64,000 nucleotides of DNA, taken from a virus. How positions within the stretch are numbered: position 1 is the first letter of the stretch; the number at the start of each line of letters is the position of its first letter. A program made the position numbers and the translations under genes. The DNA lies in IMG/VR virus record IMGVR_UViG_3300045988_120048, positions 1 to 64,000 of that record, one strand, 5' to 3'. The notes beneath the pieces were generated by a model that made no database searches, was not told where the DNA came from, and saw only the letters and a program-made list of their open reading frames with translations. Shown in pieces: positions 6,954 through 32,544 of the stretch.

Positions 6954-6990
6954 TGTGATGGTCGCAAATAGAGTTCGATTCTCTATACAC
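6954..6990 (+). ncRNA. tRNA minihelix-like element (acceptor-like stem plus T-arm, no anticodon arm)
   Basis: GTGTGAT...TAGAG-TTCGATT-CTCTA-TACAC; preceded by hairpin GGATATTCTC-aattg-GAGAATACTCC at 6917-6942. Confidence 0.3.
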
Positions 6991-7088
6991 TAACTAATTT
7001 CCTGTCAAGCCTCTTAACAATGCTCAAATCGTACAGGCTCATTTTGAAAACAATAATTATGATATACAAATTTCTTTAAGAAAGGATG

Positions 7089-7200
7089 GCTCTATGGGGG
7101 AATGGTAGACCCGACAGACTTAGAAATAATTTCATTCATAATTTTGAGTGCTCTGATACGAAAGTTCAGAAGTAGAATCTCCCTAATTAAACAACTTAAT
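7089..7200 (+). pseudogene. degenerate tRNA-Leu(UAG)-like pseudogene
   Basis: GGCTCTATGGGGGAATGGTAGACCCGACAGACTTAGAA closely parallels the 5' half of tRNA-Leu at 8476 (GGGGCTATGGGGAAACTGGCTAGACCCAGCAGACTTAGGA) but lacks a matching 3' half. Confidence 0.4.
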
Positions 7201-7684
7201 AAGGTTGAAACACCTATAAGACTAGAATCTTAGAAAATGGAATTATACCGAGTAATCGTTATAATGAATTAAGTTGCGACAGAAGCCTCATCTATGGTGA
7301 CATAGGTTTTGGTGATGACGAGCTAAATTGAATATGCAATAGTACGTATAGAAAATGATTAGTATCTTCCGAGACTAGGCAAAAGGTATTAGTAAGTTTA
7401 AATACAAAATTTTCTATATTTGTGTATTCATAAATGTGTAGAGACTATACAGGAGATACCTAAGTTAATTAAAAGGAATGGTTTAGACTTCATCCTTAGT
7501 AATAAGGTTATAAGAGTAATGCATTATGTAAAAAAGGAGACGCTCATTGAGAGGTAAAACCTAATTCCTTACTTCGAAGTTAATTGATAAGGTAATAAAA
7601 TAGTCCAGACTACAATAACTTAAAAAAGAACAAAAGTGCCTGAATAGTTCAAGATGTGGCGCCGTAGAATAGACGAGAACATTT

Positions 7685-7770
7685 TTAAGTTAGCTTGTGT
7701 AAAAGCAAGTGTGGTAGGAAAATCTGTTGTCCAGGAATGGGCGTGCGAGTTCGACTCTCGCTAGAGCTAC
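7685..7770 (+). ncRNA. tRNA-like ncRNA candidate (T-arm GCGAG-TTCGACT-CTCGC, paired ends AGCTTGT/TAGAGCT, non-canonical body of about 88 nt)
   Basis: Clear T-arm and partially pairing termini, but no canonical D or anticodon arms; it lies in a 1.2-kb noncoding stretch upstream of the vWA/TROVE-like gene. Confidence 0.3.
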
Positions 7771-7796
7771 AAACATTAACATAAAAAAGAAAAGAA

Positions 7797-8342
7797 ATGG
7801 ATTATAGAGATAAATCAATTCACAAGTTGTTGATTTCAATAACTGATTCTTATAAGAAAGCTTCTACTAATAGTTCTAGATATTATCAAAAAGGATCTAC
7901 TACGATTAGGTTTTCTGATCATTACAGCGAACATGAGTTTGTTGATTTTGAAATAGTCAAGCTTTCCAACGGTTGCTATTATTTTACTGACAAGGATCTT
8001 GCAATAACTTCTTGCTTTTATAAGGAAGATATTGTAGGATTTTTAAAAAGTTACTTTAGTATAAGGGATTTATTTGCAAGTCATATAAAGAGCTTACTAA
8101 AGGCTCTCAAAAAGACTAACAAGGAGCTTCAAAAAGTCCATAAAGATCTGAATAGTGCTAAGCTGCGATCAGACTTGGAAGTAGCTGACTCTATATATGA
8201 GGAGAACAAAAGTCTAAAGGAACAATGCAAGACTATAAAGGTAGAACTAAACAACCTTAAGGGAAAGCTACAGAGTAGCAATAAGGCTTTACTGAAAGCA
8301 TCAAATGTAATAAAAGACGCTATCAATACTATTAAAATATAA
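7797..8342 (+). CDS. hypothetical coiled-coil protein
   Basis: ORF track, 181 aa; C-terminal heptad-like K/E/L-rich segment. Confidence 0.45.
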   Translation: MDYRDKSIHKLLISITDSYKKASTNSSRYYQKGSTTIRFSDHYSEHEFVDFEIVKLSNGCYYFTDKDLAITSCFYKEDIVGFLKSYFSIRDLFASHIKSLLKALKKTNKELQKVHKDLNSAKLRSDLEVADSIYEENKSLKEQCKTIKVELNNLKGKLQSSNKALLKASNVIKDAINTIKI

Positions 8343-8475
8343 CATTATGGATTTACAAGAACTAAAGTATTTGCTAGATTATGCCAAAAAGCATAATATG
8401 ATGCATAAACCATTTATTAGTGTTTATCAAGCTTGGTCTAAGGAATTAGAAAAGGCTTATTCCAATTAAAGGTTT

Positions 8476-8560
8476 GGGGCTATGGGGAAACTGGCTAGAC
8501 CCAGCAGACTTAGGATCTGCCGCTGAAATACGCATGTGAGTTCGAATCTCACTAGCCCCA
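8476..8560 (+). tRNA. tRNA-Leu (anticodon UAG), type II
   Basis: Acceptor GGGGCTA/TAGCCCC, 3-bp D stem GGG/CCC, anticodon stem GCAGA/TCTGC with loop CTTAGGA, long variable arm, T-arm GTGAG-TTCGAAT-CTCAC. Confidence 0.75.
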
Positions 8561-8576
8561 CAATAAAATAACTAAT

Positions 8577-8924
8577 ATGAAGAAAATTTTATGTGCTTTG
8601 CTACTTGTACTTATAAGTACTAGTGCAGTCTCTCAAAAGGTATTGAGAGCAAAAGGATGCTATGATTCTAACAATACTCCATATATAAAGACAGAAATAC
8701 TTAATAACACATGGAAAGACATTGTATGTTTGGTATTTACAGTAGAATATGGATATACCTCTAAGTATGATGTTAATCGTTACAAAGAGGCTGTGGTGAA
8801 AACCTATATAGAATCAGGCACATCCAAAATAATTACTTATTATCCTCCGAAGAATTATATTCGACCTATGAGGCAAACTCTTAGTAAGGTAATATTCTCG
8901 GATGGGAGTTATAAAAATTTTTAA
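8577..8924 (+). CDS. secreted hypothetical protein (signal peptide)
   Basis: ORF track, 115 aa; N-terminus MKKILCALLLVLISTSAVSQ. Confidence 0.4.
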   Translation: MKKILCALLLVLISTSAVSQKVLRAKGCYDSNNTPYIKTEILNNTWKDIVCLVFTVEYGYTSKYDVNRYKEAVVKTYIESGTSKIITYYPPKNYIRPMRQTLSKVIFSDGSYKNF

Positions 8925-8946
8925 TAATCATGTAAAAAAAAAAAGC

Positions 8947-10689
8947 ATGGAATTTCAAAAGAAGGTAAATTCACTTCTCGACATTAAACCTGCCGAGAAT
9001 CAGTTCGTAAAGCAAGCACTGAAAGTGTCTTCTGAAACTGAGTCAGGCAATGGAGCAAAGAAGTATTCCACAACTGGAAACGATTTTGTTGATAACTTTG
9101 CTGCTGCTTCATATTTCAAAGAGCCACGCTCTTATGAGGAGGTAGCAAAGGATATGCAAACTCTATGGGATTCAAATCCTACTCTCTGTGTAAAACTTGC
9201 GCTCTATTTCAGACTCATCACACGTAAGTCCAAAGTTGTTACTAAAGACAAAAGTGAAGAACTAGAAGTTCAGCGCGGACAGGGCTTGAAGAATGAAGGT
9301 ATTATGAGAATGCTGTGGTTGGCAATCAATCAACCTGCAACATTTAAAGTAAATCTTCCTCTTTTCATTGCAGCAGGCTCATGGAAGGATGTTATTCAAA
9401 TGCTCTCTTTAGACCTACAATATCATGGCTGGGAAGAGAGAAAGTTAGATTGGAATTTCCTATATCTGACTTTGTCAGCAGGTCTTAACAATCCTGATAC
9501 AACTCACCTGGTGCGTAAGTATTTGCCAACTATTAGAACCAATAAGAACTGTACAACGCTTGAGTCTCAAGCAGACACTCTTATAGGTAGATGGTTAGCT
9601 AGAAAATTCTCTCCTAAGTTGGAGAAGGAATCAGCTTATAAGGCTTATCGAAAGATTAAGTCTGAAGGTGTTGCTCATGAATGGCAACAACTTATTTCTC
9701 AGCAGCTGTATAACTCACTTAACTTTGACCACATTGCAGGTAGAGCGTTAGCTCTCTTGGTTGGTTCTAACTTCTTGGAAAACCACAATCTTACTAAGAA
9801 GTATATTGATTGGATTTCCTCTAAGCCTGTAGCTAAGTTCACAGGATATGTGTTCGAGCTATTTGCTCCTTTCGATGGAAACTATCGACACATAGAGGAT
9901 TACAAGGAGAAGACAATCAATGCTCAATTTGCACAACTTGTAAAGACAGGCAAAGAGAATGTGGATGCTAAGTCGTCACTACTTGTAGTACGAGATACTT
10001 CATGCTCAATGGAATCAACCGCCAGAGGATGCAAGGTGTCTTCATTCTGCATTGCTAAATCTATGGCATTGTATTTCTCTGAGTTCTTAGAGGGATGCTT
10101 CGCCGGTACATTTGCAGAGTTCTCTGATGGTTGCAAACTCCATAAATGGGCTGGAGCAACTCCAGTTGATAAGTACATCAATGATCATTGTGAGGCTTAC
10201 GGAAGTACTAATTTCCAATCTGTAATAGATCTCTTTATAAGGTTAAAATCAGAAGGAGTTGAGGAAAAGGATTTTCCAAGTGGAATCCTTTGCGTAAGTG
10301 ATGGAGAGTTTAATAGATGTGGTACTAACAAATCTACAAATTTCCAACTTGCAATTAGAAGACTTCGTGAGGCTGGATTTAGTGAGGAATACGTCAATTC
10401 CTTTAAGATTATCCTTTGGGATATTCCTAATGGATGGTATGGCGATGATAACAAGGTAAAGTTTGAAGACTTTGCAGATGCTCCTAATTTCTTCTATATG
10501 TCTGGCTATGACCCAAGTGCTGTGTCATTTATTTTAGGAGGAAATAGACCTGAACTTAAGGCTCCTAAGAATGCTGAAGAGTTATTCTTAACAGCAATGG
10601 ATCAGGAGTTACTTAATAGAGTAAGAATCGTGAAGCTTAGTGTAACTAAGCGTAAACGTAAAAAGCATACAGTTCGTACTGGTTCGTGA
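8947..10689 (+). CDS. vWA-domain protein (MIDAS motif DTSCSM); architecture compatible with a TROVE/Ro60-like protein
   Basis: Track ORF 8902-10689; the likely start is ATG 8947 (MEFQKK). MIDAS-like D-x-S-x-S sits about residue 350 of 580, C-terminal to a roughly 340-aa alpha-rich domain, as in Ro60 (TROVE then vWA). The TROVE assignment itself is tentative. Confidence 0.55.
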   Translation: MEFQKKVNSLLDIKPAENQFVKQALKVSSETESGNGAKKYSTTGNDFVDNFAAASYFKEPRSYEEVAKDMQTLWDSNPTLCVKLALYFRLITRKSKVVTKDKSEELEVQRGQGLKNEGIMRMLWLAINQPATFKVNLPLFIAAGSWKDVIQMLSLDLQYHGWEERKLDWNFLYLTLSAGLNNPDTTHLVRKYLPTIRTNKNCTTLESQADTLIGRWLARKFSPKLEKESAYKAYRKIKSEGVAHEWQQLISQQLYNSLNFDHIAGRALALLVGSNFLENHNLTKKYIDWISSKPVAKFTGYVFELFAPFDGNYRHIEDYKEKTINAQFAQLVKTGKENVDAKSSLLVVRDTSCSMESTARGCKVSSFCIAKSMALYFSEFLEGCFAGTFAEFSDGCKLHKWAGATPVDKYINDHCEAYGSTNFQSVIDLFIRLKSEGVEEKDFPSGILCVSDGEFNRCGTNKSTNFQLAIRRLREAGFSEEYVNSFKIILWDIPNGWYGDDNKVKFEDFADAPNFFYMSGYDPSAVSFILGGNRPELKAPKNAEELFLTAMDQELLNRVRIVKLSVTKRKRKKHTVRTGS

Positions 10690-10756
10690 GAATAGGTACG
10701 TAACTCTTTTCACCAAAAAGTAGGAGGGCTCAACTGACTGGGAGCTCTCCGAAAAT

Positions 10757-10829: not shown

Positions 10830-10851
10830 CTAACATTCTAAAGGTATCAAT

Positions 10852-11285: not shown

Positions 11286-11298
11286 CAAAAAAAACCAG

Positions 11299-12744
11299 AT
11301 GAATCAAATTGCAAGAAAAAGCAAGAGTTCTGTTCTTGAGCAGAAGGTAAACAACTATGAAGAGGCTATGAAGAGTAAGTTCATAGAGGTAATGCAGTTA
11401 CCAGATACAACTTACGCTGATTGCCTTGACTACATTGAGAGTGAGATTGCCCAGTCTAAGAAGATGGCAAAAATTAACTATCGCATTCAGTGTTTCCGCA
11501 ACGATGGTATCTATCAGCTCAATCAGGCTATTTCTCAGGTGTTTGGATCTGTTGTTTCTAAGGAAAGTGGCAGTCCATCAGGTGAGAAAAGTGTTCAAAC
11601 TGTAGACATTACTCTTGCTGACGGAACTAGAGTTAAGGCTCCTTACGGAGATATTCAGCTCGATGGTCTTGGAGAGGATTCTTCAATTAACATTAATTAT
11701 CGTTCTGAGACACATGAACTGGTAATTACTGGAAGACTTCAGTTCCGTTTTTCATCTTTAATGGATGACATTATTGAGCAGACCAAAATGAATTTGAAGA
11801 CTAATTCGATTTATAAGGGTCAAGCTCTGGAGATTTCCAACATTAACAATCCGGAAATTCTCGACTTACGTAACATTGACGACCAGTTGATGGTTGTTAG
11901 TAAGGAAACTGAGTACGCCCTTCGTCCAATCAATGCTCGTATTCTCAATCCAGAAAAATGTATTGAGAAAGGTATTCCATTGAAGTTTGGAGCATTGTTA
12001 GAAGGAGGCTATGGAACTGGTAAAACTCTTCTTGCCTTCAAACTTGCTCGTCAGGCTGTCAAGAACAATTGGATGTTCATTTATCTGAAGGATCCAAAAC
12101 TCTTGGCAGAATCTCTTCGCATGTCTAAGATCATCGATCAATCTGGACATGGCGTTGTAATCTTTGTTGAGGATATTGATCAGGTAACACGAGGCAATCG
12201 TGATTCTGCTATGCAGGATATCCTTAACACATTGGATGGTGGTGATACTAAGGATATGAATGTCATTACCCTTTTCACTACTAATCATATTGAACTCATT
12301 GAGCCTACCTTCTTAAGAGGTAAGCGAGTTGGTACCATCATCTCTATGGGTACTCTGGATGCTGCTACAGCAGAAGAGTTTATTCGTAAATCTTTCGAGA
12401 TTGGTTGTTATCAGATTGAGGATGACCTTACAGATGTTTGTAAGTTCATCGAAGAGAACAACATCGCTCCTGCATTTATGGCAGAAATTATCGAGAAGGT
12501 TAAATCTATGATGGTGCTCACTGATGAGTGTGTCGTAAAGGCAGAGTATATTCTTAACTCTGTTAAGTCTTATCTGCACCAGGTTAAGCTTTCCCAGAAG
12601 AAGGATATGTCCCAAACTCCTGAGAAGAGACTTGTTGAGGCACTCAAGGAATGTCTCAATGTAGACGAGAAGCGTACTAAACAGTTCATTGCAATGACTG
12701 AAAGTTACTTCGACGATAGCTTGGATAACTATAACGTGCAGTAA
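11299..12744 (+). CDS. AAA+ ATPase (classical AAA clade)
   Basis: Walker A GGYGTGKT, Walker B VIFVEDID, sensor-1 FTTN, arginine-finger region LRGKR. Confidence 0.7.
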   Translation: MNQIARKSKSSVLEQKVNNYEEAMKSKFIEVMQLPDTTYADCLDYIESEIAQSKKMAKINYRIQCFRNDGIYQLNQAISQVFGSVVSKESGSPSGEKSVQTVDITLADGTRVKAPYGDIQLDGLGEDSSININYRSETHELVITGRLQFRFSSLMDDIIEQTKMNLKTNSIYKGQALEISNINNPEILDLRNIDDQLMVVSKETEYALRPINARILNPEKCIEKGIPLKFGALLEGGYGTGKTLLAFKLARQAVKNNWMFIYLKDPKLLAESLRMSKIIDQSGHGVVIFVEDIDQVTRGNRDSAMQDILNTLDGGDTKDMNVITLFTTNHIELIEPTFLRGKRVGTIISMGTLDAATAEEFIRKSFEIGCYQIEDDLTDVCKFIEENNIAPAFMAEIIEKVKSMMVLTDECVVKAEYILNSVKSYLHQVKLSQKKDMSQTPEKRLVEALKECLNVDEKRTKQFIAMTESYFDDSLDNYNVQ

Positions 12745-12757: not shown

Positions 12758-12782
12758 AGAGAACTTTAGCAATATTGCTAAT
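12758..12782 (+). promoter_or_regulatory. conserved intergenic motif, variant (ATAAGAGAACTTTAGCAATATTGC)
   Basis: Matches the family consensus TAAGAG...GCAA...TT; lies between the AAA+ gene and the minihelix element. Confidence 0.4.
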
Positions 12783-12818
12783 GGTTATTTTATGATTCTT
12801 TTTAAGTTCTCTATTTAA

Positions 12819-12864
12819 GGTGCATTCCTCAGTGGGAAGTAGAGGTTCGAATCCTTATGCACCT
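12819..12864 (+). ncRNA. tRNA minihelix-like element (acceptor stem, D-loop-like segment and T-arm; no anticodon arm)
   Basis: GGTGCAT-TCCTCAGTGGGAAGT-AGAGG-TTCGAAT-CCTT-ATGCACC; perfect 7-bp acceptor pairing; followed by a T-rich run. Confidence 0.45.
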
Positions 12865-12900
12865 CGACTGGATACTTTTTTGTTTTTTATTGTTAATAAA

Positions 12901-12925
12901 TAAGAAGACTAACAGCAAGTATTTC
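12901..12925 (+). promoter_or_regulatory. conserved intergenic motif, instance c (TAAGAAGACTAACAGCAAGTATTTC)
   Basis: About 50 nt upstream of the tRNA at 12974. Confidence 0.5.
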
Positions 12926-12973
12926 ATACACTCGATTAGGGATCAAGTAAGTACAAACAAGTCTTCTGTTTAT

Positions 12974-13083: not shown

Positions 13084-13112
13084 ATAAGAAGGAATCTAAC
13101 AGCAAATATATT
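13084..13112 (+). promoter_or_regulatory. conserved intergenic motif, instance d (ATAAGAAGGAATCTAACAGCAAATATATTC)
   Basis: Followed by tRNA-like fragments at 13120-13190 (a T-arm-like ATTGG-TTCGAAT-CCAAT, then a tRNA 5'-half-like GGTAGCTCAGCTGGTTTAGAGCA). Confidence 0.5.
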
Positions 13113-13119
13113 CTTGTAA

Positions 13120-13190
13120 AAGCAGCAAGTCATTGGTTCGAATCCAATCCTCAAAGGTAGCTCAGCTGGTTTAGAGCAGCAGCCATAAAA
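13120..13190 (+). pseudogene. fragmented or rearranged tRNA-like sequence (T-arm-like segment precedes a D-arm-like segment)
   Basis: GTCATTGGTTCGAATCCAATC then GGTAGCTCAGCTGGTTTAGAGCAGCAGCC; no consistent cloverleaf. Confidence 0.3.
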
Positions 13191-13233
13191 GAATAGATTC
13201 CTGTTTTAGATTAGTATTTATTAATTAAAAACT

Positions 13234-13755: not shown

Positions 13756-13814
13756 TGGAAAGTCCTAAGCATGACCTGAAACTGCTTACTATGGGGATGT
13801 TTGGTTTTGATTGC

Positions 13815-13838
13815 ATAGGAGATAAGAAGCACAGCAAA
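13815..13838 (+). promoter_or_regulatory. conserved intergenic motif, instance (GGAGATAAGAAGCACAGCAAAGAC)
   Basis: Same family; followed by a 280-nt structured noncoding region. Confidence 0.4.
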
Positions 13839-13929
13839 GACAGTTGGAAAGACAACAAAACAATAAATGCTAGAGTTATTAATATGACTCCTGCTTATCA
13901 GGCTGCTGCCTAATAAGCCGAGCAGCACT

Positions 13930-14040
13930 TGCTTAGGAACAGAAAGGTGCGCCATTGACAATTCTATAAGTTCTCTGTATACTTTAGGAACAGAGTGGTG
14001 GAAGTTGACAGTATATCAATCCTGTCAGCCCTAAAAGACA
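13930..14040 (+). repeat. imperfect tandem direct repeat (TTAGGAACAGA..GTG...TTGACA, two copies) in noncoding region
   Basis: TTAGGAACAGAAAGGTGCGCCATTGACAAT and TTAGGAACAGAGTGGTGGAAGTTGACAGT about 55 nt apart; preceded by hairpin GCTGC-15nt-GCAGC at 13895-13920. Confidence 0.4.
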
Positions 14041-14075
14041 AGGATAGTCTTTAAAACCTATGCTGTAAGAATGCT

Positions 14076-14112
14076 TTGATGCAAATATGTAAGACAGGGG
14101 TTCGACTCCCCT
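14076..14112 (+). pseudogene. tRNA 3' fragment (T-arm AGGGG-TTCGACT-CCCCT plus acceptor 3' strand) with no recognisable 5' half nearby
   Basis: ACAGGGGTTCGACTCCCCTCATCTCCA; upstream body does not fold as a tRNA. Confidence 0.35.
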
Positions 14113-14142
14113 CATCTCCACTTAAATGTTATATTTAGAAGA

Positions 14143-14170
14143 TTGTTATAGGAATGCACACAGCAAACTT
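14143..14170 (+). promoter_or_regulatory. conserved intergenic motif, instance h (TTATAGGAATGCACACAGCAAACTTAG)
   Basis: Family member. Confidence 0.4.
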
Positions 14171-14254
14171 AGACTATAATACAAGACTTTTAATCTTGAA
14201 CATTTCTAGTAGCATTCCGTTTTTGTTTTGAATCCATTTTTACTATATTGTTTG

Positions 14255-14282
14255 AATAAGAATACTAACAGCAATTTTATCA
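14255..14282 (+). promoter_or_regulatory. conserved intergenic motif, instance e (AATAAGAATACTAACAGCAATTTTATC)
   Basis: About 50 nt upstream of the HNH gene at 14331. Confidence 0.5.
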
Positions 14283-14330
14283 AGAATTAGTGGTTAATTT
14301 CTAAAATGTATTCTGTTTAATTTTTTTTTT

Positions 14331-14807
14331 ATGAATTGTATAAACTGTGGCAAAGAGTTAACTGGTAATTAGAAGAAATTTTGTTCTAGAAAGTGTAAAT
14401 ATGAATATTATAAGAAAGAGAATGAGGGAACTTCTTATAATTCAGCTTATAGTAAAAGAAAAGACGCTCATGGTGTTTATCTTAAATATAAGTTAATAAA
14501 GTATAAGGGAGGAAAATGTGAATGTTGTGGATATGATAAGAACATTGCGGCACTTCAATTTCATCATTTGGATCCCACTACTAAGAAATTTACATTGGAT
14601 TCTAGAACTATAGAGAGAAAAAGTGACGAAGAGATTCTATAGGAACTTAGTAAATGTAAGTTACTTTGTGCTAATTGCCATGCTGAATTGCACAATCCAG
14701 AGATGGCAAAGGAAAATTGTGTAAAGTTTAAAGAGGCTTCGAAAGGAATAAAACGTCGAAAACCTCATAACCTAGATATTTTGAATATCTCCTAGTGTTC
14801 CGAATGA
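14331..14807 (+). CDS. HNH homing endonuclease paralog with three in-frame TAGs (14370, 14637, 14793)
   Basis: MNCINCGKELTGN-TAG-KKFCSRKCKYEYY...GGKCECCGYDKNIAALQFHHLDP...CANCHAELH, closely similar to the 2470-3039 gene; ends at TGA 14805-14807 and overlaps the start of tRNA-Cys. Confidence 0.55.
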
Positions 14808-14860
14808 TTAGGTTCCGCTCTGCAAAAGCGTGTATGTGGGTTTGAGTCCCACCTAGGAGT
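14789..14860 (+). tRNA. tRNA-Cys (anticodon GCA)
   Basis: Acceptor CTCCTAG/CTAGGAG, anticodon stem CGCT/AGCG with loop CTGCAAA, T-arm GTGGG-TTTGAGT-CCCAC; D-arm imperfect. Confidence 0.55.
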
Positions 14861-14893
14861 CAAGGAGGGTTCGACTCCCTCACTGCCCTCTAC
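14861..14893 (+). pseudogene. tRNA 3' fragment (T-arm GAGGG-TTCGACT-CCCTC plus ACTGCCC) abutting tRNA-Cys
   Basis: CAAGGAGGGTTCGACTCCCTCACTGCCCTCT directly follows the tRNA-Cys discriminator. Confidence 0.35.
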
Positions 14894-21906: not shown

Positions 21907-22784
21907 CTAAAAGATGGGTGAGCTCTCGAAATTGTGCGAGGATTATCATCCAACAACTCCCAGAGCAAGTTATCTTCGGATATACTAGTAAGCCTGATAA
22001 GGTTGTTAGAGTTCTTATAGCTAGCTCTAGTGGGCATAGTAATTACTTTGAAACGGATTTAAATCTATATAAGGGGAAACTCTTGTATAGTAAGAGAAAT
22101 GGAGTATACTTTTCTCCTATCCATCACAACGAAGATTTTATACTTACAGAGCAGCTCATAAAGGGTTTCGGAGATTTTCCTTATATTCTTACTAGAAGGT
22201 ATGAAGCTGTAGAGAATTTCGATGCTTTCAATGGAAAGCAAGAAATCAAAGACCATGAAACTTTGTATCCCTTATCAAAATATTTAAAGTACACTTTTGG
22301 ACTGGAGTTCGAAACATCTCAAGGATATGTGCCTGAGGACGTATGTTATCGAGATGGATTAATCCCATTAAGGGATGGATCCATTACCGGACCAGAGTAC
22401 TCTACCGTTATACTGAAGGGAGGAGAGGGACTTTCTCTTCTTCATCAGCAGATAGAGACACTCAAAGAGTATACTAACTTTAATAAGGAATGCTCTCTAC
22501 ATGTTCATCTAGGAGGTTATCCTCTTAAGCCTGATACTATCTACAATCTTTATCTTGTATGTAAATCTATTGAACCTGAGCTGGAAAATATGCTTCCTGC
22601 TTTGACTTTCAATAGTGCTAGATATAAGGATAATGGTAAAGACTATTGTAAAAAGCTTGCTTTGTACGGTAGTTTTGAGGATATGTATTCACATCTAGTG
22701 GGAAGACAATTCTTCGGAAGCTTTACCCAAGCTCATCCTGATGATAAAGAACGAAAAAGAAAGTGGAATATACCAACTCGTTAG
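21885..22784 (+). CDS. amidoligase paralog, 5' exon
   Basis: FGLEFETSQG...SLHVHLGGY motifs of Amidoligase_2; ORF terminates at TAG-TAA immediately before intron-like sequence. Confidence 0.6.
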   Translation: MQVFDEITKRWVSSRNCARIIIQQLPEQVIFGYTSKPDKVVRVLIASSSGHSNYFETDLNLYKGKLLYSKRNGVYFSPIHHNEDFILTEQLIKGFGDFPYILTRRYEAVENFDAFNGKQEIKDHETLYPLSKYLKYTFGLEFETSQGYVPEDVCYRDGLIPLRDGSITGPEYSTVILKGGEGLSLLHQQIETLKEYTNFNKECSLHVHLGGYPLKPDTIYNLYLVCKSIEPELENMLPALTFNSARYKDNGKDYCKKLALYGSFEDMYSHLVGRQFFGSFTQAHPDDKERKRKWNIPTR

Positions 22785-23085
22785 TAAAATGGCGAGGCTA
22801 ACTGGAGACAGTTAGAAAAATAAATTGGGTGAATTTAGGGAAACCTAAATAAAATCATTATATTTGTAGTATATCAATTTATGCTACAAAGTAAGTGATT
22901 TTACAAGGCAATCCTAAGCCAAGCTATAGCTTAACAACTATAGAAGGTTCAGAGACTAACAGTTGAAACTCCTTTTAAGGAGAATATAATACTGACACGA
23001 GCGCCCGACATCCTTATGGGATGAAGATATAGTCCGATACCTAGAGGAAACTTTAGGATGCAAGATAAAGAACTTGCTATAACAT
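22785..23085 (+). mobile_element. group I intron (ORF-less) in amidoligase paralog
   Basis: Contains GGTTCAGAGACTAACAG (R element) and GAAGATATAGTCCGA (S element) in correct order; flanked by the two halves of one amidoligase reading frame. Confidence 0.7.
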
Positions 23086-27612: not shown

Positions 27613-27640
27613 ATAATAAGAGCACTTGCAGCAAAAATTC
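27613..27640 (+). promoter_or_regulatory. conserved intergenic motif, instance f (ATAATAAGAGCACTTGCAGCAAAAATTC)
   Basis: Family member, about 140 nt upstream of the minihelix element at 27777. Confidence 0.45.
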
Positions 27641-27776
27641 AAAAATAAAATATTATTCATAAAATGACTTTTGAATTTAATAACTAGCTGGTCTAGTCCG
27701 ATTTCTATTGAGGTTAATGTAGAATATTCTCTTGCTACTATTAGAAGATAAATAGAAGTAGTGGAGGTGCTCTGTT

Positions 27777-27823
27777 TAGGTTGGAGTTAAGGCTCTATAG
27801 AGGTTCGAACCCTCTCAACCTTC
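27777..27823 (+). ncRNA. tRNA minihelix-like element (acceptor-like stem plus T-arm; no anticodon arm)
   Basis: TAGGTTG-GAGTTAAGGCTCTAT-AGAGG-TTCGAAC-CCTCT-CAACCTT; 6 of 7 acceptor pairs. Confidence 0.4.
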
Positions 27824-29138: not shown

Positions 29139-29218
29139 TACCTCCTTATATCAGTGGTAGAAGTTTAACAAAGTCTATATTAGTGAAACTGTCAGTGGTT
29201 CGAATCCACTAGGAGGTA
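29139..29218 (+). ncRNA. tRNA-like element (perfect acceptor ACCTCCT/AGGAGGT and T-arm AGTGG-TTCGAAT-CCACT; body does not fold into a canonical anticodon arm)
   Basis: Middle segment is about 6 nt longer than a class I tRNA; only an AGTTT/AAACT stem with a 19-nt loop is evident. Confidence 0.4.
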
Positions 29219-29253
29219 CTACCTGTTCCTGTAAACAAAAAAAAAAGAAGAAA

Positions 29254-30528
29254 ATGGCTGATTTTAATATGAGTAAATTGTGGCTCGGTAAAGATGGATA
29301 TTACCGAGATGTAAACGGCAACAAGATTGCCTAGAAAGGGCAGCCCATTTCTGGTGCTGCTTGGAGATATTTAGCAGGAAAATATGGAAGGGAAGTTGCC
29401 AATAGAACCTCAATGAATACTAGAAATGGAAACATATTCTAGAATGGACGTTGGCGTTTTAATGATATCAAATCTTCTAAGCAAGGGAAAACTGCTACAT
29501 GGGATGAAGCAGCTTCTAGAATAGAGGAAAATGCAAAGGCAGCAGGAGCTAGAAAGACAGCAACCGGCTATACATAGAGAAACCCTTTCAATAATAAAGA
29601 TACCTATCTAAATCAAGATACAAAGAATAAAGCTATGAAGGCTTATAGAGCACGACAGAAATCATAGACTTCTGCTGAGAATCCTGATGAATTTAGTTGG
29701 AGTGATCTAAATCCTTTCAAGAAAGGTGCTTGGGAAGGCAACTGGGATAGTGCAGCAAAAAACTTCGTTGATTCCTTTAAATCAATTCCTGATATTTGGA
29801 AAAAGGGGTATGCTAGAAGAGGTGAAATGTACGATAATGTTCCTCAGAGTGTGTTGGGTCCAAAACGAAACACAGGTGCTTTGGCACGATTCAATGATAC
29901 TCTTGGAGATATTTCTAGAACTGGAAATGCTGTTCTGGGAGGAACTATTGGAACTGCCTTGCAGCTCTTGCTACCATAGAAGGTTGAGAGAGAAGCTGGC
30001 AATCTAGGACAATATCTAGATCTAGGTAAAGATGTTAACTCTGTCAGAAGTTATTTAACTCCAGGAGAAGAAGGAATATTGCCAGATGATCCTAGGAATA
30101 AGGGATTTGCTGATTAGAATTTTGCCTGGACTGGACTAGACGAATAGTAGAGAAGAAATATTAACGATGATGCCAACTTTGCTATGGCTATCCTTGGAAC
30201 TAAAGGTATGAAGGGTGGAGTCTCTAGACTTAAGACTGGAGTCTCTGGAATGATAAGAGATGGAGTAGGTACTACGCTGAAGAATAATTGGAAACCTATT
30301 ATGTCTCATACACCAGGTGCTGCTAACCTTTATTAGGCTGGAAGTGCACTTAATTCTGTAAGAAGGGCATTAGCCCCTAAGAGACTAGGAGGAGCAGAAG
30401 GAATTGGCAGTAGATCTGCAAATGTAGGAAAAGCTGCATTTCAGGGGCTTATGGCTTCAGATCCTACTATGGCACTATACCCTTATGCACATAGCAGTTA
30501 TATGGTAAATTTATCTAATAATAATTAA
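29254..30528 (+). CDS. hypothetical protein encoded with about 9 in-frame TAG codons (read-through required); ends at TAA
   Basis: One frame is continuously open from ATG 29254 to TAA 30526 except for TAG codons (for example GCC TAG AAA; TTC TAG AAT; GAA TAG TAG AGA). No in-frame TAA or TGA. Track ORF 29726-30007 is in a different, spurious frame. Confidence 0.55.
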
Positions 30529-30530
30529 AT

Positions 30531-31997
30531 ATGAGTATTAAAAAGAAGGCACAATATTTAGGTGAGGGAGTAAATTGGTTAAAAGGTCATGGTTAGATGA
30601 TACCAGATTACTTCGGAAACCTGATGAGACGAATTGGAGGAGGTGAGAGAGCTGTAGTTAGAGCTAGGCAAGCTTCTCCAGAATTAATTGCATCTAGAAA
30701 TAGTTAGAGAGGAGCTGAAATGAGTCATAATCTTGCAGCTCAAAGATATAAAGAAGCTTAGCAAGCAGAAAGTAAATTATTAGACAGCACTAAAAATTGG
30801 AAGTAGCCTAATAGTAAAAGAAATGTAAAGAGAGTAAATGATGCTGCGCGAAAAACAGATGAAGCTGAAAGAAGTGCAATAACTGCATCATAGAAAAGTA
30901 TGGAAGCTAAGGAAGCTTTCAATAATACTAAGAGACAGGTTACGAATGATGCCCTAAGACAAGTTAGGAATAAAGGTATTAAAAGAACTCTTAAAACTAC
31001 TGGACTTGTAGGTGGTCTTGGTACTGGAGCTTATCTAGTTATTCCAAGAAATTCTAAATCACCTAGTGCTGCAGCTGAAAAGAAATTAAACAAGCTTGCA
31101 AAGTAGAAAATATTGCAGTAGACAGGTAGTTGGAGACCTACATAGAAGATGAGAGAAATCAACTTAGAAGGGAAGAAGCAGTCCATCAGGGATGCAAAAG
31201 CCATGAGGAGTGCAGCTTCTAAGGCTCAACTCAAATGGATGTAGGAAAACTCTGATAAAGCTACCAAGGTTTACAAGAGTGGCGCTAGAGAATTTGGAGG
31301 GGATGAAAATAAATTAGCCCTTCTAAAGGTTAGACAAGAAGCAATGAAACCATTCATTTCGTAGGAAGCAAGTAAAATCCGAAGGAATAGAGCATTAGGT
31401 ACTTTAGGCTTAGCCGGACTTGTCACTGCAGGTTATAACTTTGAACCAACTAACTTTTATGTTCACGATCTTCATAAAGGGTGGAGAAATAAAATTGGTT
31501 TGGATTCAAAGAGTACAACTCGTACCGAAAAAGATATGTCAGATAACTTCAATAATCAAATTCAAGAGTTGGCTGCTCTGGCAATAGCCTCTGATTAGAA
31601 GGGATTAACTCCTTGGGTTTACCAAGTGTATAATAGATCACATGGCAGGGAAGCTAAATATGCAGATTTTAGTAATCCTATAAAATTCCTTAACCCTGGA
31701 TAGAGAGTTGAATATTCTAATGGAGGTATGAGCATGTCCTAGTCTAGAAATAAGGATGGATTTAATGTAGTATTAACTGACGAAGCAGCTTGGGATCCAG
31801 ATTAGGGTGCATCCTATTCAGCACTTTCTCCTAGAGGACTTCCAGTTACATTAGGAGTGACTAGGAAGAATTTGGGAAATAATATTGACAAAATGAGATA
31901 TTAGTATAATATCCCGCTCGAAAAGGTAGATAGTATGCGGAATGTATACAATAAATATTCTGAAATAATAAGAAAAGAAAGAGAAAATAAGGCATGA
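30531..31997 (+). CDS. hypothetical protein encoded with about 23 in-frame TAG codons; ends at TGA overlapping the next gene's ATG
   Basis: Frame open from ATG 30531 to TGA 31995-31997 apart from TAGs; contains track ORF 30900-31106 in the same frame; no in-frame TAA or TGA. Confidence 0.55.
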
Positions 31998-32491
31998 AAA
32001 AGATGTTAGTATTGCTTATTAGCATTCCATGTATGTTTATCGCATGGTATTGCTATGGGATGGGTAAATCTCAGTATTCTGGAAATATCTATTCTTGTAT
32101 AGATATGAAAATAGAATATGGACATATCAATCCGAATAATTTGAAGGAAGTTATTGATTTCTCAAATGAGATAACTTCTCGTACATTAACTTTTTCTACA
32201 AAATCTGAATATAAAGGTTTTGATAAGTTATCATTAAACAAAGAGACTAAAACTCATTGTGTCTATTATGCCAGAACTTATAAGAAGGTATTTGATTACA
32301 TTATCTCAAAAGGTAACTTAAAAGCAACTTGTGAAATAAGAAGAGAACCCATAAAGGGTTTAGGATTTATTCCAAAATTCTTTAAGTCCATTGGAGATAC
32401 TAGAATGTATAATTTTACCAAGGACCATGACTACTGTGTAGTTAATGGCGTAATTGTAGTAGACCCAACTGTTTATGATTTCTTACATTAA
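31994..32491 (+). CDS. secreted or lipoprotein-like hypothetical protein
   Basis: ORF track, 165 aa; hydrophobic N-terminus; start overlaps upstream stop (ATGA). Confidence 0.45.
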   Translation: MKKMLVLLISIPCMFIAWYCYGMGKSQYSGNIYSCIDMKIEYGHINPNNLKEVIDFSNEITSRTLTFSTKSEYKGFDKLSLNKETKTHCVYYARTYKKVFDYIISKGNLKATCEIRREPIKGLGFIPKFFKSIGDTRMYNFTKDHDYCVVNGVIVVDPTVYDFLH

Positions 32492-32499
32492 GAAAAAGA

Positions 32500-32544
32500 A
32501 GCTCTATATGGTATTTTTGGCAGGTTCGAATCCTGCCAGAGCTA
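32500..32544 (+). ncRNA. tRNA minihelix-like element (acceptor stem plus T-arm; no anticodon arm)
   Basis: AGCTCTA-TATGGTATTTTTG-GCAGG-TTCGAAT-CCTGC-CAGAGCT. Confidence 0.45.

What the first reader, a model, noticed from the sequence alone, without database searches (positions are those of the whole stretch)
6954..32544. Family of 45-50 nt tRNA minihelix-like elements (acceptor stem plus T-arm, no anticodon arm)
At least four loci (6954-6990, 12819-12864, 27777-27823, 32500-32544) have a 5-7 bp acceptor-like stem closed around a canonical T-arm (NNNGG-TTCGAAT/C-CCNNN) with only 10-15 nt between them. That is too short to hold D and anticodon arms. Two have perfect 7-bp acceptor pairing. They resemble the tRNA-like module of bacterial and phage Y RNAs (YrlA) and minihelix substrates of RNase P, RNase Z and CCA-adding enzymes. 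They are scattered among real tRNAs and sit next to the conserved intergenic motif. Separately, bare tRNA 3' fragments (T-arm plus acceptor 3' strand) occur at 14076-14112 and 14861-14893.
Basis: seen in the sequence. Interest (0 to 1): 0.6.

Follow-up and report, generated by a model that had tools for sequence, protein, structure and literature searches.

The report
Anticodon-less tRNA remnants in gut phage
Four short conserved elements in this large gut phage are tRNA genes that lost their anticodon half but kept the half that tRNA-processing enzymes grip, so they most likely act as cutting marks between genes rather than as adaptors or Y-RNA parts.

Summary
Four 42-47-nt elements lie on the coding strand in intergenic DNA: E1 6951-6993, E2 12818-12865, E3 27777-27823, E4 32500-32544. 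Each has an 11-12-bp acceptor/T-stem stack, a canonical T-loop and an 11-16-nt GG-containing connector, with no anticodon arm. Shuffled windows give 0.055 such elements. Rfam tRNA and YrlA models do not hit them. They derive from tRNAs. E4's ends match this phage's tRNA-Leu(UAA), and a distant homologue of its downstream gene has a full tRNA-Leu(TAA) in the same slot. E2's slot holds full tRNAs in relatives. They are also under structural selection. E1's T-arm is invariant and every acceptor change keeps pairing. E4 is 96-100% identical where the adjacent gene is 66-85% identical. E4 has three stem-preserving variants and two decayed or lost copies. The likeliest role is a t-element-like RNase P / RNase Z processing signal in tRNA-punctuated transcripts; this is inferred, not shown. 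They are not YrlA modules, although a separate YrlA-like RNA lies at 13091-13208. The "bare fragment" at 14076-14112 is the tmRNA 3' end. The one at 14861-14893 is the remnant of a tRNA-Cys displaced by an HNH cassette. Similar elements occur in unrelated viral contigs.

The parts
6951..6993 (+). E1 top-half element. Acceptor 6951-6957 / 6986-6992, connector 6958-6968 (ATGGTCGCAAA), T-arm 6969-6985, discriminator A6993.
   Evidence: Orthologues occur in 8 contigs of two clades. All 60 pair cells are paired, one pair is fully compensatory (U-A to A-U) and the T-arm is invariant.
6917..6942 (+). Hairpin GGATATTCTC-AATT-GGAGAATACTCC, ending 8 nt before E1. It follows the small ORF 6793-6903.
   Evidence: The hairpin is kept with a different sequence in L006/L008/L010. 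fold.
12758..12817 (+). Leader module in front of E2: AGAGAACTT + TAGCAA ... AAGTTCTCT + ATTTA.
   Evidence: It has the same architecture as the module before tRNA-Pro (12904-12973).
12818..12865 (+). E2 top-half element in 8/4 configuration, with a D-like hairpin at 12825-12838.
   Evidence: Four variants keep the pairing (T-stem A-U/G-U to G-U/G-C). It is absent in L069. The slot holds full tRNAs in L065/L066/L070.
27619..27773 (+). Leader module in front of E3: AGAGCACTT + GCAGCAA ... AGGTGCTCT + GTTT.
27777..27823 (+). E3 top-half element: 6-bp acceptor plus 5-bp T-stem, with connector hairpin GAGT-TAAG-GCTC.
   Evidence: It is conserved in L054-L057, with changes only in loops, one connector-hairpin position (L055) and an A-U to G-U change at the first acceptor pair.
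32479..32495 (+). Hairpin TTTCTTA-CAT-TAAGAAA spanning the stop codon of ORF 31994-32491. It ends 4 nt before E4.
32500..32544 (+). E4 top-half element (6/6 bp) with connector ATATGGTATTTTT. Its 3' end lies 23 nt before the ATG of ORF 32568-33452.
   Evidence: Homology with relatives starts exactly at E4. There are three stem-preserving variants. The element is decayed in L073/L089 and absent in L094. A full tRNA-Leu(TAA) occupies the same slot in L095.
7088..7769 (+). tRNA-Leu(UAA) split after U34 by a 597-nt intron (exons 7088-7121 and 7719-7769). It is the paralogue whose ends and 3' trailer resemble E4.
   Evidence: The uninterrupted version is L001 8784-8869.
13793..14123 (+). tmRNA.
14861..14893 (+). 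Remnant (T-arm plus 3' acceptor strand) of the ancestral tRNA-Cys(GCA).
   Evidence: The intact gene is at L001 16925-16996, L004 7390-7461 and L005 15056-15127. In the window its 5' two-thirds is replaced by HNH ORF 14331-14807 plus a new tRNA-Cys at 14789-14861.
13091..13208 (+). The actual YrlA-like RNA of this phage: a T-arm then a D-arm inside a GGAATCT/AGATTCC stem with ACAGCAA. It is not part of the minihelix class.
   Evidence: RF02553, 28.1 bits, gathering score 69. The Ro60-like ORF is at 8902-10689.

Best explanation
E1-E4 are tRNA genes reduced to their 'top half'. They keep the acceptor stem stacked on the T-arm, plus a D-loop-like GG connector that can still form the elbow.

They can no longer decode. 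They keep what RNase P, RNase Z and the CCA-adding enzyme measure on a tRNA.

The phage transcribes this all-plus-strand island as long RNAs in which tRNAs are interspersed with small genes. The elements probably act in cis as processing marks:
- RNase P cuts at their 5' end. The upstream RNA is left ending in the hairpin or module that precedes each element.
- RNase Z cuts after the discriminator. The downstream RNA gets a short leader.

Shown: the anatomy, the tRNA ancestry, the structure-preserving evolution, and a genomic context shared with real tRNAs.

Inferred: transcription, cleavage, and any benefit to neighbouring genes.
For: Anatomy
- The elements have an 11-12-bp coaxial stack (7/5, 8/4, 6/5, 6/6), T-loop TTCRANY with G53-C61, and GG in every connector.
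- Four are found against 0.055 expected.
- Acceptor/T-stem/T-loop hairpins are efficient model RNase P substrates (PMC11143913).
- RNase P, RNase Z and the CCA-adding enzyme measure from the elbow along this stack (PMC4919913).

tRNA ancestry and slot continuity
- E4's ends and 3' trailer match tRNA-Leu(UAA): AGAGCTACAA..TTAAC.
- The 36%-identity homologue of its downstream gene carries a full tRNA-Leu(TAA) ending 23 nt before the ATG. E4 shows the same spacing.
- E2's slot holds tRNA-Ile, tRNA-Pro or tRNA-Arg in L065/L066/L070.

Selection
- E1: 100% of cells are paired, there is one compensatory pair, the T-arm is invariant, and both flanks are unalignable.
- E4 plus its UTR is 96-100% identical where the gene body is 58-86% identical.
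- E4 forms A, A' and B keep 6+6 bp through two compensatory T-stem pairs and a base-pair deletion.
- The one decayed copy is about 70% identical with broken stems. This shows what neutral drift looks like.

Context
- E1, E3 and E4 have N73-C74 trailers like the phage's tRNAs.
- E2 and E3 follow the same leader module as tRNA-Pro, tRNA-Glu and tRNA-Trp.
- 8 of 32 tRNA-like 3' ends, E4 among them, lie 10-40 nt before the next ATG. For random intergenic positions the figure is 7.2% (P=0.0016).
- In L006/L008/L010, E1 ends roughly 15-25 nt before the Ro-like ORF's ATG.
- There is no excess of sigma-70-type promoters or terminators near the elements.

Precedent
- Plant mitochondrial t-elements were found with the same GGTTCRANYCC motif. 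They define mRNA ends through RNase P and RNase Z (PMC1920247).
Against: - There are no expression or cleavage data.
- E2 and E3 end 368 nt and 122 nt from the next ORF.
- E2 lies 108 nt upstream of a real tRNA-Pro that could do the same job. E2 is missing from a 96%-identity relative (L069).
- E4 is decayed or absent in two lineages. The E1-like copies in L007/L009 keep only 4 acceptor pairs. The elements are therefore dispensable.
- E1's acceptor is weak: two G-U pairs, -8.5 kcal/mol, z = -1.05. It is not in the minimum-energy fold when flanks are included. E4 has a competing extended hairpin.
- Covariation statistics are thin: 5 distinct E1 sequences, and 51 of 500 shuffles reach the observed score.
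- The high identity of E4 could partly reflect recombination, because E4 sits exactly at a mosaic junction.
- My hairpin-before-+1 test was not discriminating: 25 of 29 observed against 64% of controls.
Confidence: 0.5

Rival explanations
1. The excised 42-47-nt minihelices are themselves the functional product. They would be stable, CCA-tailed small RNAs acting in trans. Possible roles are a decoy or sponge for a host factor or defence nuclease that recognises the tRNA acceptor/T-arm, a cofactor of a phage protein, or an aminoacylatable or SmpB/EF-Tu-binding mimic like a tmRNA tRNA-like domain without its message.
For: - Sequence, not only pairing, is conserved. E1's T-arm and ATGGT connector are invariant across clades.
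- E4 is identical across genomes whose neighbouring gene is 66-72% identical.
- The architecture [acceptor][0-2 nt]ATGGT[5-8 nt][T-arm][acceptor] recurs in unrelated viral contigs. Many of these have no tRNA in the stretch held here. Ten of 54 unique matches are closed, against 0-4 in shifted controls.
- A tRNA-like-domain-only derivative of tmRNA that keeps G3:U70 exists in relative L034.
- E1 sits 8 nt from a lone abiF antitoxin-type RNA, so the island may carry anti-defence RNAs (PMC12373285).
Against: - No partner protein or target has been identified.
- There is no common identity element. G3:U70 occurs only in the L010 copy of E1, and discriminators differ among the elements.
- The elements have different parent tRNAs and different sequences, which is odd for a single specific ligand.
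- They are lost in close relatives.
- The contexts of the unrelated elements are heterogeneous. One lies next to an integrase.
Confidence: 0.2
2. They are decaying tRNA pseudogenes: accidental internal deletions with no present function. Their apparent conservation would reflect short divergence times and hitch-hiking with neighbouring genes.
For: - The elements clearly have a tRNA origin.
- They are patchy: E2 is absent in L069, E4 is decayed in L073/L089 and absent in L094, and the acceptor is eroded in L007/L009.
- E2 and E3 are known only from genomes more than 90% identical.
- A definite relic exists nearby, the tRNA-Cys remnant at 14861-14893.
Against: - Four independent deletions all leave an intact 11-12-bp stack plus T-loop. 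The true relic is a one-sided fragment.
- E1 and E4 are far better conserved than their flanks or the adjacent coding sequence.
- All stem changes in 11 intact E4 copies and 8 E1 copies preserve pairing. The single decayed E4 carries about 11 substitutions and 2 deletions.
Confidence: 0.15
3. They act at the DNA level. They would be short conserved sequences serving as crossover points for exchanging gene modules between co-infecting relatives, or as attachment-site-like tRNA fragments.
For: - E4 is exactly the left border of homology in four relatives that have four different upstream genes.
- E1 is the right border of a conserved block with three different downstream contexts.
- One unrelated minihelix (L171) lies 71 nt from an integrase gene.
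Against: - Selection on DNA identity would not give compensatory base-pair changes or register-preserving indels.
- Each element is single-copy in the genome.
- attP sites need only the 3' part of a tRNA, not a complementary 5' strand.
- An exact-match scan of 185,579 genomes with the 24-nt T-arm/3'-acceptor part of E4 (32520-32543) found only an unrelated archaeal sequence, apparently an intron-containing tRNA that ARAGORN did not call.
- Junctions are expected at any locally conserved functional element.
Confidence: 0.07
4. They are Y-RNA (YrlA-type) tRNA-like modules that work with the phage's Ro60-like protein.
For: - A Ro60-like ORF (DUF2828 + DUF7788) lies at 8902-10689. E1 is 2 kb upstream of it, or directly upstream in L006/L008/L010. 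E2 is 2 kb downstream.
- E2 and E3 follow stem + (A/G)CAGCAA modules. That motif aligns to the GGCGAA 5' strand of the YrlA model (GNCGAA motif in PMC4201824).
Against: - The elements have no Ro-binding stem of their own.
- Arm order is tRNA-like, not permuted.
- RF02553 gives no hit at E<=10.
- The same modules precede ordinary tRNAs.
- None of the 43 more distant Ro-encoding relatives has such an element within 10 kb of the Ro gene. The few scan hits there are pieces of ACAGCAA-framed RNAs, the L034 tmRNA derivative and one coding-region match.
- E3 and E4 are 17-22 kb from the Ro gene.
Confidence: 0.05

Closest known systems
Plant mitochondrial t-elements (Hanic-Joyce 1990; Forner et al. 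2007, PMC1920247)
   Same: - Both are tRNA-derived, non-decoding structures that keep the GGTTCRANYCC T-arm and an acceptor stem.
- Both lie in intergenic or UTR positions of polycistronic transcripts.
- Their ends coincide with mRNA 5' or 3' ends.
- They are thought to be cut by RNase P and RNase Z, and they acquire non-templated C/CA.
   Different: - t-elements are mostly imperfect cloverleaves in an organelle genome.
- These are 42-47-nt pure top halves in a bacteriophage.
- Processing is experimentally mapped for t-elements and untested here.
Synthetic acceptor/T-arm minihelix substrates of RNase P, RNase Z, CCA-adding enzyme and some aminoacyl-tRNA synthetases (McClain/Altman; PMC11143913, PMC4919913)
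   Same: They share the same two stacked helices plus T-loop, about 12 bp in total. This is the minimal unit those enzymes recognise.
   Different: - The laboratory constructs join the two strands directly.
- The phage elements keep an 11-16-nt D-loop-like connector with GG, so they may still form an elbow.
- They are natural and conserved.
tRNA-like domain (TLD) of tmRNA
   Same: - Both have an acceptor stem, a stemless D-loop analogue containing UGG, and a T-arm.
- The phage's own tmRNAs read GGGCTTG-CATGGTTTTGAC.
- L034 carries a 44-nt TLD-only derivative.
   Different: - E1-E4 lack G3:U70 (except the L010 copy of E1), lack any message domain, and are not hit by RF00023 beyond an 11-nt T-loop match.
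- E4 demonstrably comes from tRNA-Leu.
YrlA / bacterial and phage Y RNAs (Chen et al. 2014, PMC4201824)
   Same: - Both are tRNA mimics without an anticodon loop, encoded near a Ro60-type gene.
- M. smegmatis YrlA is cut by RNase P and receives CCA.
   Different: - YrlA nests a permuted T-acceptor-D module inside a Ro-binding stem with a GNCGAA motif.
- E1-E4 are open-ended, unpermuted and have no Ro-binding stem.
Phage-encoded non-tRNA RNase P substrates (phi80 M3 RNA, P1/P7 C4 antisense RNA; listed in PMC11143913) and mascRNA-type 3'-end formation (my own knowledge)
   Same: These are small phage or cellular RNAs, or mRNA ends, matured because a tRNA-like fold recruits RNase P.
   Different: Those RNAs have their own effector parts or full cloverleaf mimicry. 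Here nothing but the recognition module remains.
Non-canonical 8/4 and 9/3 tRNAs (Mukai et al., PMC5389517) and armless mitochondrial tRNAs
   Same: E2's 8/4 split of the 12-bp branch matches tRNAs described in bacteria and phages. Loss of whole arms is tolerated in mitochondrial tRNAs.
   Different: All of those keep the anticodon arm and still decode.

Membership tests
tRNA (RF00005) | Anticodon arm and D-arm in a cloverleaf of about 70-90 nt | tested here: not met
   Only 11-16 nt lie between the acceptor 5' strand and the T-stem. ARAGORN does not call them.
tRNA (RF00005) | Score at or above the Rfam gathering threshold (29 bits) | tested here: not met
   No RF00005 match at E1-E4 even at E<=10.
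tRNA (RF00005) | Acceptor/T-stem stack of about 12 bp, T-loop TTCRANY with G53-C61 | tested here: met
   Stacks are 7/5, 8/4, 6/5 and 6/6. All four have a G-TTCRANY-C T-loop.
YrlA / Y RNA (RF02553) | Long stem formed by the 5' and 3' ends that carries the Ro60-binding GNCGAA-type motif | tested here: not met
   The ends of E1-E4 form a 6-8-bp acceptor stem with no such motif. The motif-bearing stems are separate upstream modules that also precede real tRNAs.
YrlA / Y RNA (RF02553) | Permuted tRNA-like domain (T-arm, closed acceptor-like stem-loop, then D-arm) | tested here: not met
   The order is acceptor 5' strand, D-like connector, T-arm, acceptor 3' strand. Compare the true YrlA-like RNA at 13091-13208.
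YrlA / Y RNA (RF02553) | Rfam score at or above 69 bits | tested here: not met
   No hit at E<=10 on E1-E4.
YrlA / Y RNA (RF02553) | Co-occurrence with a Ro60 gene | tested here: not met
   43 Ro-encoding relatives (Ro 38-57% identity; 0.86 Mb, 896 tRNAs) have no E-type element within 10 kb of the Ro gene.
t-elements (tRNA-like processing signals) | tRNA-derived fold with a conserved T-arm motif and acceptor stem, non-decoding, in transcribed intergenic or UTR sequence | tested here: met
t-elements (tRNA-like processing signals) | Element ends coincide with mapped mRNA ends; cleavage by RNase P / RNase Z; non-templated C/CA added | not testable with these tools
   This needs RNA end-mapping or in vitro cleavage. 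The only indirect support is the spacing to downstream ATGs.
tmRNA tRNA-like domain | G3:U70 alanine identity pair | tested here: not met
   E1 has G2:U71 (G3:U70 only in L010). E2, E3 and E4 have Watson-Crick pairs at 3:70.
tmRNA tRNA-like domain | Linked message domain with tag reading frame and pseudoknots | tested here: not met
   The elements are 42-47 nt in all. RF00023 matches only 11 nt of the T-loop at 5.8 bits.
Phage attP tRNA fragment | Exact copy of the 3' part of a host tRNA gene next to an integrase | tested here: not met
   No integrase domain was found among the roughly 40 window ORFs scanned against Pfam. The 24-nt T-arm/3'-acceptor part of E4 has no bacterial match among 185,579 species genomes. 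Only E4 was scanned.

The most novel reading that the evidence does not exclude
Phages of many lineages carry a previously unrecognised class of genes for 'top-half' tRNA mimics: acceptor stem + ATGGT-type D-loop remnant + T-arm, about 40-47 nt.

On this reading they are excised, CCA-tailed and act in trans. For example, they could soak up or misdirect host factors or anti-phage nucleases and transferases that recognise the tRNA acceptor/elbow. They could also work like message-less tmRNA domains.

E1-E4 of this gut phage, the TLD-only tmRNA derivative in L034 and the unrelated IMG/VR elements (L099, L111/L113, L114, L126, L132/L148, L152, L206) would all be members.
Probability: 0.2. Interest if true: 0.75.

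Novelty: new variant of a known kind. Interest (0 to 1): 0.5.

Why it matters
**For phage biology.** If the elements are cutting marks, a large gut phage organises expression of a 34-kb gene island the way mitochondria do, by tRNA punctuation. It also keeps the punctuation after the tRNA has lost its decoding half. That would explain why tRNAs in such phages are scattered between small genes rather than clustered. It would add a reason other than codon usage for phages to carry tRNA genes.

**For annotation.** tRNA finders and Rfam miss these elements. Orphan T-arms in phage genomes should not be dismissed as noise or filed as Y RNAs.

**For evolution.** The elements are natural, selected examples of the acceptor/T-arm minihelix, which has long been used as a laboratory model and proposed as the older half of tRNA.

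**If the trans-acting reading holds.** They would be a new kind of phage small RNA aimed at the tRNA-handling machinery.

Tried and rejected
- **Rfam at relaxed thresholds**. No tRNA, YrlA, tmRNA or ribozyme family explains E1-E4. No Rfam family at gathering score covers the unrelated IMG/VR elements either.
- **Parent tRNAs by half-alignment**. E2's acceptor equals that of tRNA-Asp(GTC) in the 55% clade, and E1's T-arm resembles it. The rest does not align, and E2's slot holds tRNA-Ile in L066. The parents of E1, E2 and E3 are left open. Only the E4 to tRNA-Leu(UAA) link is firm.
- **Test for a hairpin ending 2-10 nt before position +1**. It was too permissive: 64% of random positions pass. 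I dropped it as evidence.
- **Sigma-70 promoter and terminator scan**. Nothing rises above the shuffles. Bacteroidota-type or phage promoters are not covered, so this says little.
- **Theta/HDV-like ribozyme idea for the ACAGCAA module**. Theta ribozymes lie 3' of tRNAs and Rfam gave no HDV-type hit. I did not pursue it.
- **Exact-pattern IMG/VR scan for E1**. It returned only the eight contigs already known.
- **Host-tRNA or attP idea for E4**. The only hit was an unrelated archaeal sequence, apparently an intron-containing tRNA that ARAGORN did not call.
- **E1 as a dedicated processing handle for the abiF RNA.** I rejected this as a general explanation. E1 occurs without the abiF RNA in L005, L006, L008 and L010.
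- **L004 523-566** (AU-only acceptor, inside the tRNA-Leu intron). I treated it as probably chance or part of the intron.
- **ARAGORN at a lowered threshold** calls E3 in L054 'tRNA-Pro'. I rejected the call as spurious.

Full report
**Setting**

The window is part of an AT-rich phage genome of about 175 kb from the human gut. The closest relatives are IMG/VR contigs of 165-190 kb and ENA gut assemblies.

The first 34 kb form an all-plus-strand RNA island. It contains:
- 22 tRNAs found by ARAGORN or Rfam;
- a tmRNA at 13793-14123;
- a group I intron at 22773-23057 (a second lies outside the island at 48363-48645);
- an abiF-motif RNA at 7001-7038;
- a weak YrlA hit at 13099-13207.

A Ro60-like ORF (DUF2828 + DUF7788) lies at 8902-10689, followed by an AAA ATPase at 11299-12744. 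The phage reads TAG as sense in some genes. A CTA-anticodon tRNA at 29140 is followed by ORFs with 9 and 15 in-frame TAGs.

Yes. Reading the four loci and running an explicit T-arm/acceptor scan gives the following.

| Element | Coordinates | Acceptor | Connector | T-arm |
|---|---|---|---|---|
| E1 | 6951-6993 | 7 bp, two G-U | 11 nt, ATGGTCGCAAA | TAGAG-TTCGATT-CTCTA |
| E2 | 12818-12865 | 8 bp possible | 4-bp D-like hairpin | 4-bp T-stem |
| E3 | 27777-27823 | 6 bp plus T.T | 4-bp hairpin | 5-bp T-stem |
| E4 | 32500-32544 | 6 bp | 13 nt, ATATGGTATTTTT | 6-bp T-stem |

- Each has G53-TTCRANY-C61 and a GG in the connector.
- The two stems sum to 11-12 bp, as in tRNA.
- The T-arm core GGTTCRAWYCC occurs 10 times against 0.09 expected.
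- A full-architecture scan finds exactly these four on the + strand and none on the - strand. Dinucleotide shuffles give a mean of 0.055.
- All four are intergenic under code 11 and under TAG-as-sense.
- Thermodynamic stability alone is unimpressive for E1 and E3 (z about -1) and better for E2 and E4 (z = -2.0 and -3.0).
- With flanks included, E1's acceptor is not in the minimum-energy fold, and E4 has a competing extended hairpin.

**The two 'bare 3' fragments'**

14076-14112 is simply the 3' tRNA-like end of the tmRNA.

14861-14893 is a genuine orphan, and relatives explain it. In L001, L004 and L005 the same T-arm and 3' strand (GAGGG-TTCGACT-CCCTC-ACTGCCC) close an intact tRNA-Cys(GCA), preceded by the usual leader module. 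In the window the 5' two-thirds of that gene is replaced by an HNH-type ORF (14331-14807, three in-frame TAGs) plus a different tRNA-Cys(GCA) at 14789-14861. This shows what an unselected relic looks like here: a one-sided fragment.

**What the four elements are not**

- Rfam's tRNA and YrlA models do not hit them even at E<=10. The only match is 11 nt of T-loop to the tmRNA model.
- The real YrlA-like RNA of this phage is at 13091-13208. A GGAATCT/AGATTCC stem with ACAGCAA encloses a T-arm followed by a D-arm. That is the permuted order described for YrlA (PMC4201824).
- E1-E4 have the normal tRNA order and no enclosing stem.
- Across 53 Ro-encoding relatives, E-type elements occur only in the two closest clades. 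The 0.86 Mb from the Ro 38-57% clades, with 896 tRNAs, contains none. The few scan hits there are pieces of ACAGCAA-framed RNAs, one tmRNA derivative and one coding-region match.

**Origin**

E4 is a tRNA-Leu(UAA) derivative.
- Its 5' part (AGCTCTA-TA-TGGTA) and its 3' part with trailer (..AGAGCT-A-CAA..TTAAC) match the phage's tRNA-Leu(UAA). That gene is intact in L001 (8784-8869). In the window it is split after U34 by a 597-nt intron (exons 7088-7121 and 7719-7769).
- In a metagenomic contig the homologue of E4's downstream gene is only 36% identical. There, a complete tRNA-Leu(TAA) ends 23 nt before the ATG. E4 shows the same spacing.

E2's slot after the AAA gene holds module + tRNA-Ile(GAT), module + tRNA-Pro, or module + tRNA-Arg in relatives with 73-81% identity. 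In a 96%-identity relative, both E2 and the following tRNA-Pro cassette are absent.

The parents of E1-E3 remain uncertain. A 7-bp acceptor identity between E2 and tRNA-Asp of a distant clade may be coincidence.

The four elements therefore seem to be independent reductions, not one gene family.

**Selection**

*E1.* It is found in eight contigs spanning Ro identities of 74-99%.
- Both flanks are unalignable between clades. The upstream hairpin is kept with a different sequence. Downstream there is the abiF RNA, another sequence, or the Ro-like ORF itself.
- Despite this, the 17-nt T-arm and the ATGGT of the connector are invariant.
- All six variable acceptor positions preserve pairing: one U-A to A-U swap and three G-U to G-C or A-U changes.
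- All 60 pair cells are paired, against 28-77% when the partner strand is slid.
- With five distinct sequences the shuffle control is weak (51 of 500).

*E4.* It is present in 11 of 14 contexts that have the downstream gene.
- Homology with four relatives begins exactly at E4.
- E4 plus the 23-nt leader is 96-100% identical, whereas the gene body is 58-86% identical.
- Three variants exist. Form A' has a connector 2 nt shorter. Form B (L072/L087/L092) has two doubly compensated T-stem pairs and loses one acceptor base pair, offset by a new A-T pair. Every variant keeps 6+6 bp.
- One lineage has a decayed copy of about 70% identity, with the T-loop TTAGAAT and broken stems. One lineage has none.
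- This bimodal pattern, intact or wrecked, is what a dispensable but selected element shows.

*E2 and E3.* They are known only from close relatives. Their few changes fall in loops or preserve pairing, apart from one connector-hairpin position in the L055 copy of E3. For example, the E2 T-stem changes A-U/G-U to G-U/G-C.

**Context shared with real tRNAs**

- E2 and E3 are immediately preceded by the same leader module as tRNA-Pro, tRNA-Glu and tRNA-Trp. The module is a covarying 7-9-bp stem whose 5' strand is followed by (A/T)ACAGCAA or a variant. Its 3' strand is followed by TGTTTAT-like sequence 4-9 nt before position +1.
- E1 and E4 are preceded by plain hairpins ending 8 and 4 nt upstream.
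- E1, E3 and E4 have the N73-C74 trailer typical of this phage's tRNAs.
- 8 of 32 tRNA-like 3' ends lie 10-40 nt before the next start codon. These are E4, tRNA-Leu(UAA), tRNA-Leu(UAG), tRNA-Thr, tRNA-His, the suppressor tRNA, the YrlA-like RNA and the Cys remnant. For random intergenic positions the figure is 7.2% (binomial P=0.0016).
- In L006/L008/L010, E1 ends roughly 15-25 nt before the Ro-like ORF's ATG.
- No excess of sigma-70-type promoters or intrinsic terminators flanks the elements. That scan does not cover Bacteroidota-type or phage promoters.

**Mechanism proposed**

The features retained are those that RNase P, RNase Z and the CCA-adding enzyme use: the 12-bp stack, the T-loop and a possible elbow. 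Acceptor/T-stem/T-loop hairpins are efficient model RNase P substrates (PMC11143913). All three enzymes measure from the elbow along this stack (PMC4919913).

I therefore read E1-E4 as tRNA genes that lost decoding but are kept as cis-acting processing marks in tRNA-punctuated polycistronic transcripts. RNase P would leave the upstream RNA ending in the preceding hairpin or module. RNase Z would give the downstream RNA a short leader.

The closest described analogue is the plant mitochondrial t-element, which was found with the same GGTTCRANYCC motif and tied to mapped mRNA ends (PMC1920247). Transcription, cleavage and benefit are all inferred here. I put this at about 0.5.

**Rivals**

1. 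*The released minihelix has its own trans function* (0.2). Sequence-level conservation favours this.
   - Of 54 unique matches outside tRNAs, 10 are closed by a 6-7-bp acceptor placed exactly as in E1 and E4. Shifted controls give 0-4.
   - The hits are in unrelated contigs (L099, L111/L113 with a covarying T-stem, L114, L126, L132/L148, L152, L171, L206).
   - For most of these, no tRNA lies in the stretch held here, and none has an Rfam family.
   - Their contexts are mixed. One lies next to an integrase.
2. *Neutral pseudogenes* (0.15). tRNA ancestry and patchy loss support this. The conservation pattern contradicts it.
3. *DNA-level recombination or attachment sites* (0.07). The elements sit at mosaic junctions. 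But compensatory changes point to RNA, and the 24-nt T-arm/3'-acceptor part of E4 has no bacterial counterpart among 185,579 species genomes.
4. *YrlA/Ro partnership* (0.05). See above.

**Verdict**

The finding is real and not ordinary noise. The Y-RNA reading does not hold. The best label is a phage counterpart of t-elements: a new variant of a known kind.

I found no description of such elements in phages in six full-text literature searches. That library is incomplete, so absence there is not proof of novelty.

Noticed in passing
window 1826, 1956, 2048, 12904-12973, 13091-13208, 14151-14225, 14259-14320, 33563-33675; many loci: A family of stem modules with this layout: a covarying 7-9-bp stem (outer AAGAA/TTCT conserved), then (A/T)ACAGCAA right after the 5' strand, a 25-100-nt variable insert, and CTG(T/A)TT after the 3' strand.

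In the fetched loci, 443 lie on the gene strand against 83 on the other strand. About 28% end 6-9 nt before a tRNA. One frames the YrlA-like RNA.

The motif aligns to the GGCGAA Ro-binding strand of the YrlA model. The module also gives sub-threshold hits to Rfam Dicty_Class_I_RNA (stem + CUUACAGCAA; 26.7 bits at 14260-14315, 18.4 bits at 12904-12968). These may be mini Y-RNA-like partners of the Ro-like protein, or tRNA leader elements.
   Followed up: partly
window 7001-7038: A lone abiF-motif RNA (RF03085, 50.2 bits, gathering score 37) lies 8 nt after E1. No Abi_2/AbiF gene was found among the scanned neighbours.

abiF-motif RNAs neutralise AbiF toxins like type III antitoxins (PMC12373285). 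A phage-borne copy could therefore be an anti-defence decoy.

It is present in the window and in L001-L003. It is absent in L005 and in the mid clade.
   Followed up: partly
window 7088-7769: tRNA-Leu(UAA) is interrupted between U34 and A35, the classical cyanobacterial/plastid trnL site, by a 597-nt insert. The insert has no ORF and no Rfam group I hit.

The gene is intact in L001 (8784-8869). Insert length differs in L002 (about 385 nt overall). L007 has a tRNA with an Rfam-detected group I intron at 17706-17909.
   Followed up: partly
window 14331-14893: An HNH-type ORF with three in-frame TAG codons, plus its own tRNA-Cys(GCA), has replaced the 5' two-thirds of the resident tRNA-Cys(GCA). 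Only the T-arm and 3' strand of the old gene remain. This looks like a homing cassette that brings a replacement tRNA.
   Followed up: yes
L034 5207-5250 (compare L013 about 7632-8229): A 44-nt tmRNA derivative that consists of the tRNA-like domain only: GGGCCTA-TTATGGTTTTGAC-AGCAG-TTCGACT-CTGCT-TAGGTCC-A.

G3:U70 is kept. The stems differ compensatorily from the roughly 600-nt tmRNA that relatives carry at the same place. Rfam finds no tmRNA elsewhere in L034.
   Followed up: partly
IMG/VR loci L099, L111, L113, L114, L126, L132, L148, L152, L171, L206: Top-half elements with the same architecture occur in unrelated viral contigs: [acceptor][0-2 nt]ATGGT[5-8 nt][T-arm][acceptor], 39-44 nt long.

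For most, no tRNA lies in the stretch held here. L206's connector ATGGTTGTAAG is identical to that of E1 in L008, although neighbouring proteins are unrelated.

   Followed up: partly
window 29140-31997: A suppressor-type tRNA with anticodon CTA (ARAGORN calls it 'Pyl') sits immediately upstream of two long ORFs that appear only if TAG is sense. These are 29254-30528 with 9 TAGs and 30531-31997 with 15 TAGs. Most other genes in the window have none. This pattern fits partial or stage-specific TAG recoding.
   Followed up: partly
window 557-655 and 661-788: Two adjacent RNAs of 99 and 128 nt are closed by a 7-bp acceptor stem and a canonical T-arm, but with non-tRNA interiors (long hairpins in place of the D and anticodon arms). 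Fold z-scores are -2.9 and -3.4.

Homologues in L001/L002 differ in length (155 and 129 nt), and their acceptors covary: GGCTCTC, GGTTCCC, TACTCCC.
   Followed up: partly
window 6676-6763, 6793-6903; L008 9766-9861: Small conserved ORFs of about 30-36 codons with a K-W-Y-(F/L) motif lie just upstream of the E1 hairpin. They are kept together with E1 across clades.
   Followed up: no
L105 1499-2396: Eight tandem matches to ATGGT..GGTTCGAATCC occur at a 125-nt period in an unrelated 129-kb viral contig. This is an array of T-arm-bearing repeats of unknown nature.
   Followed up: no
L006 180-278, L010 178-284, L034 6316-6417: Relatives of this phage carry RAGATH-1 hammerhead ribozymes and a RAGATH-34 RNA in the same RNA island.
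   Followed up: no
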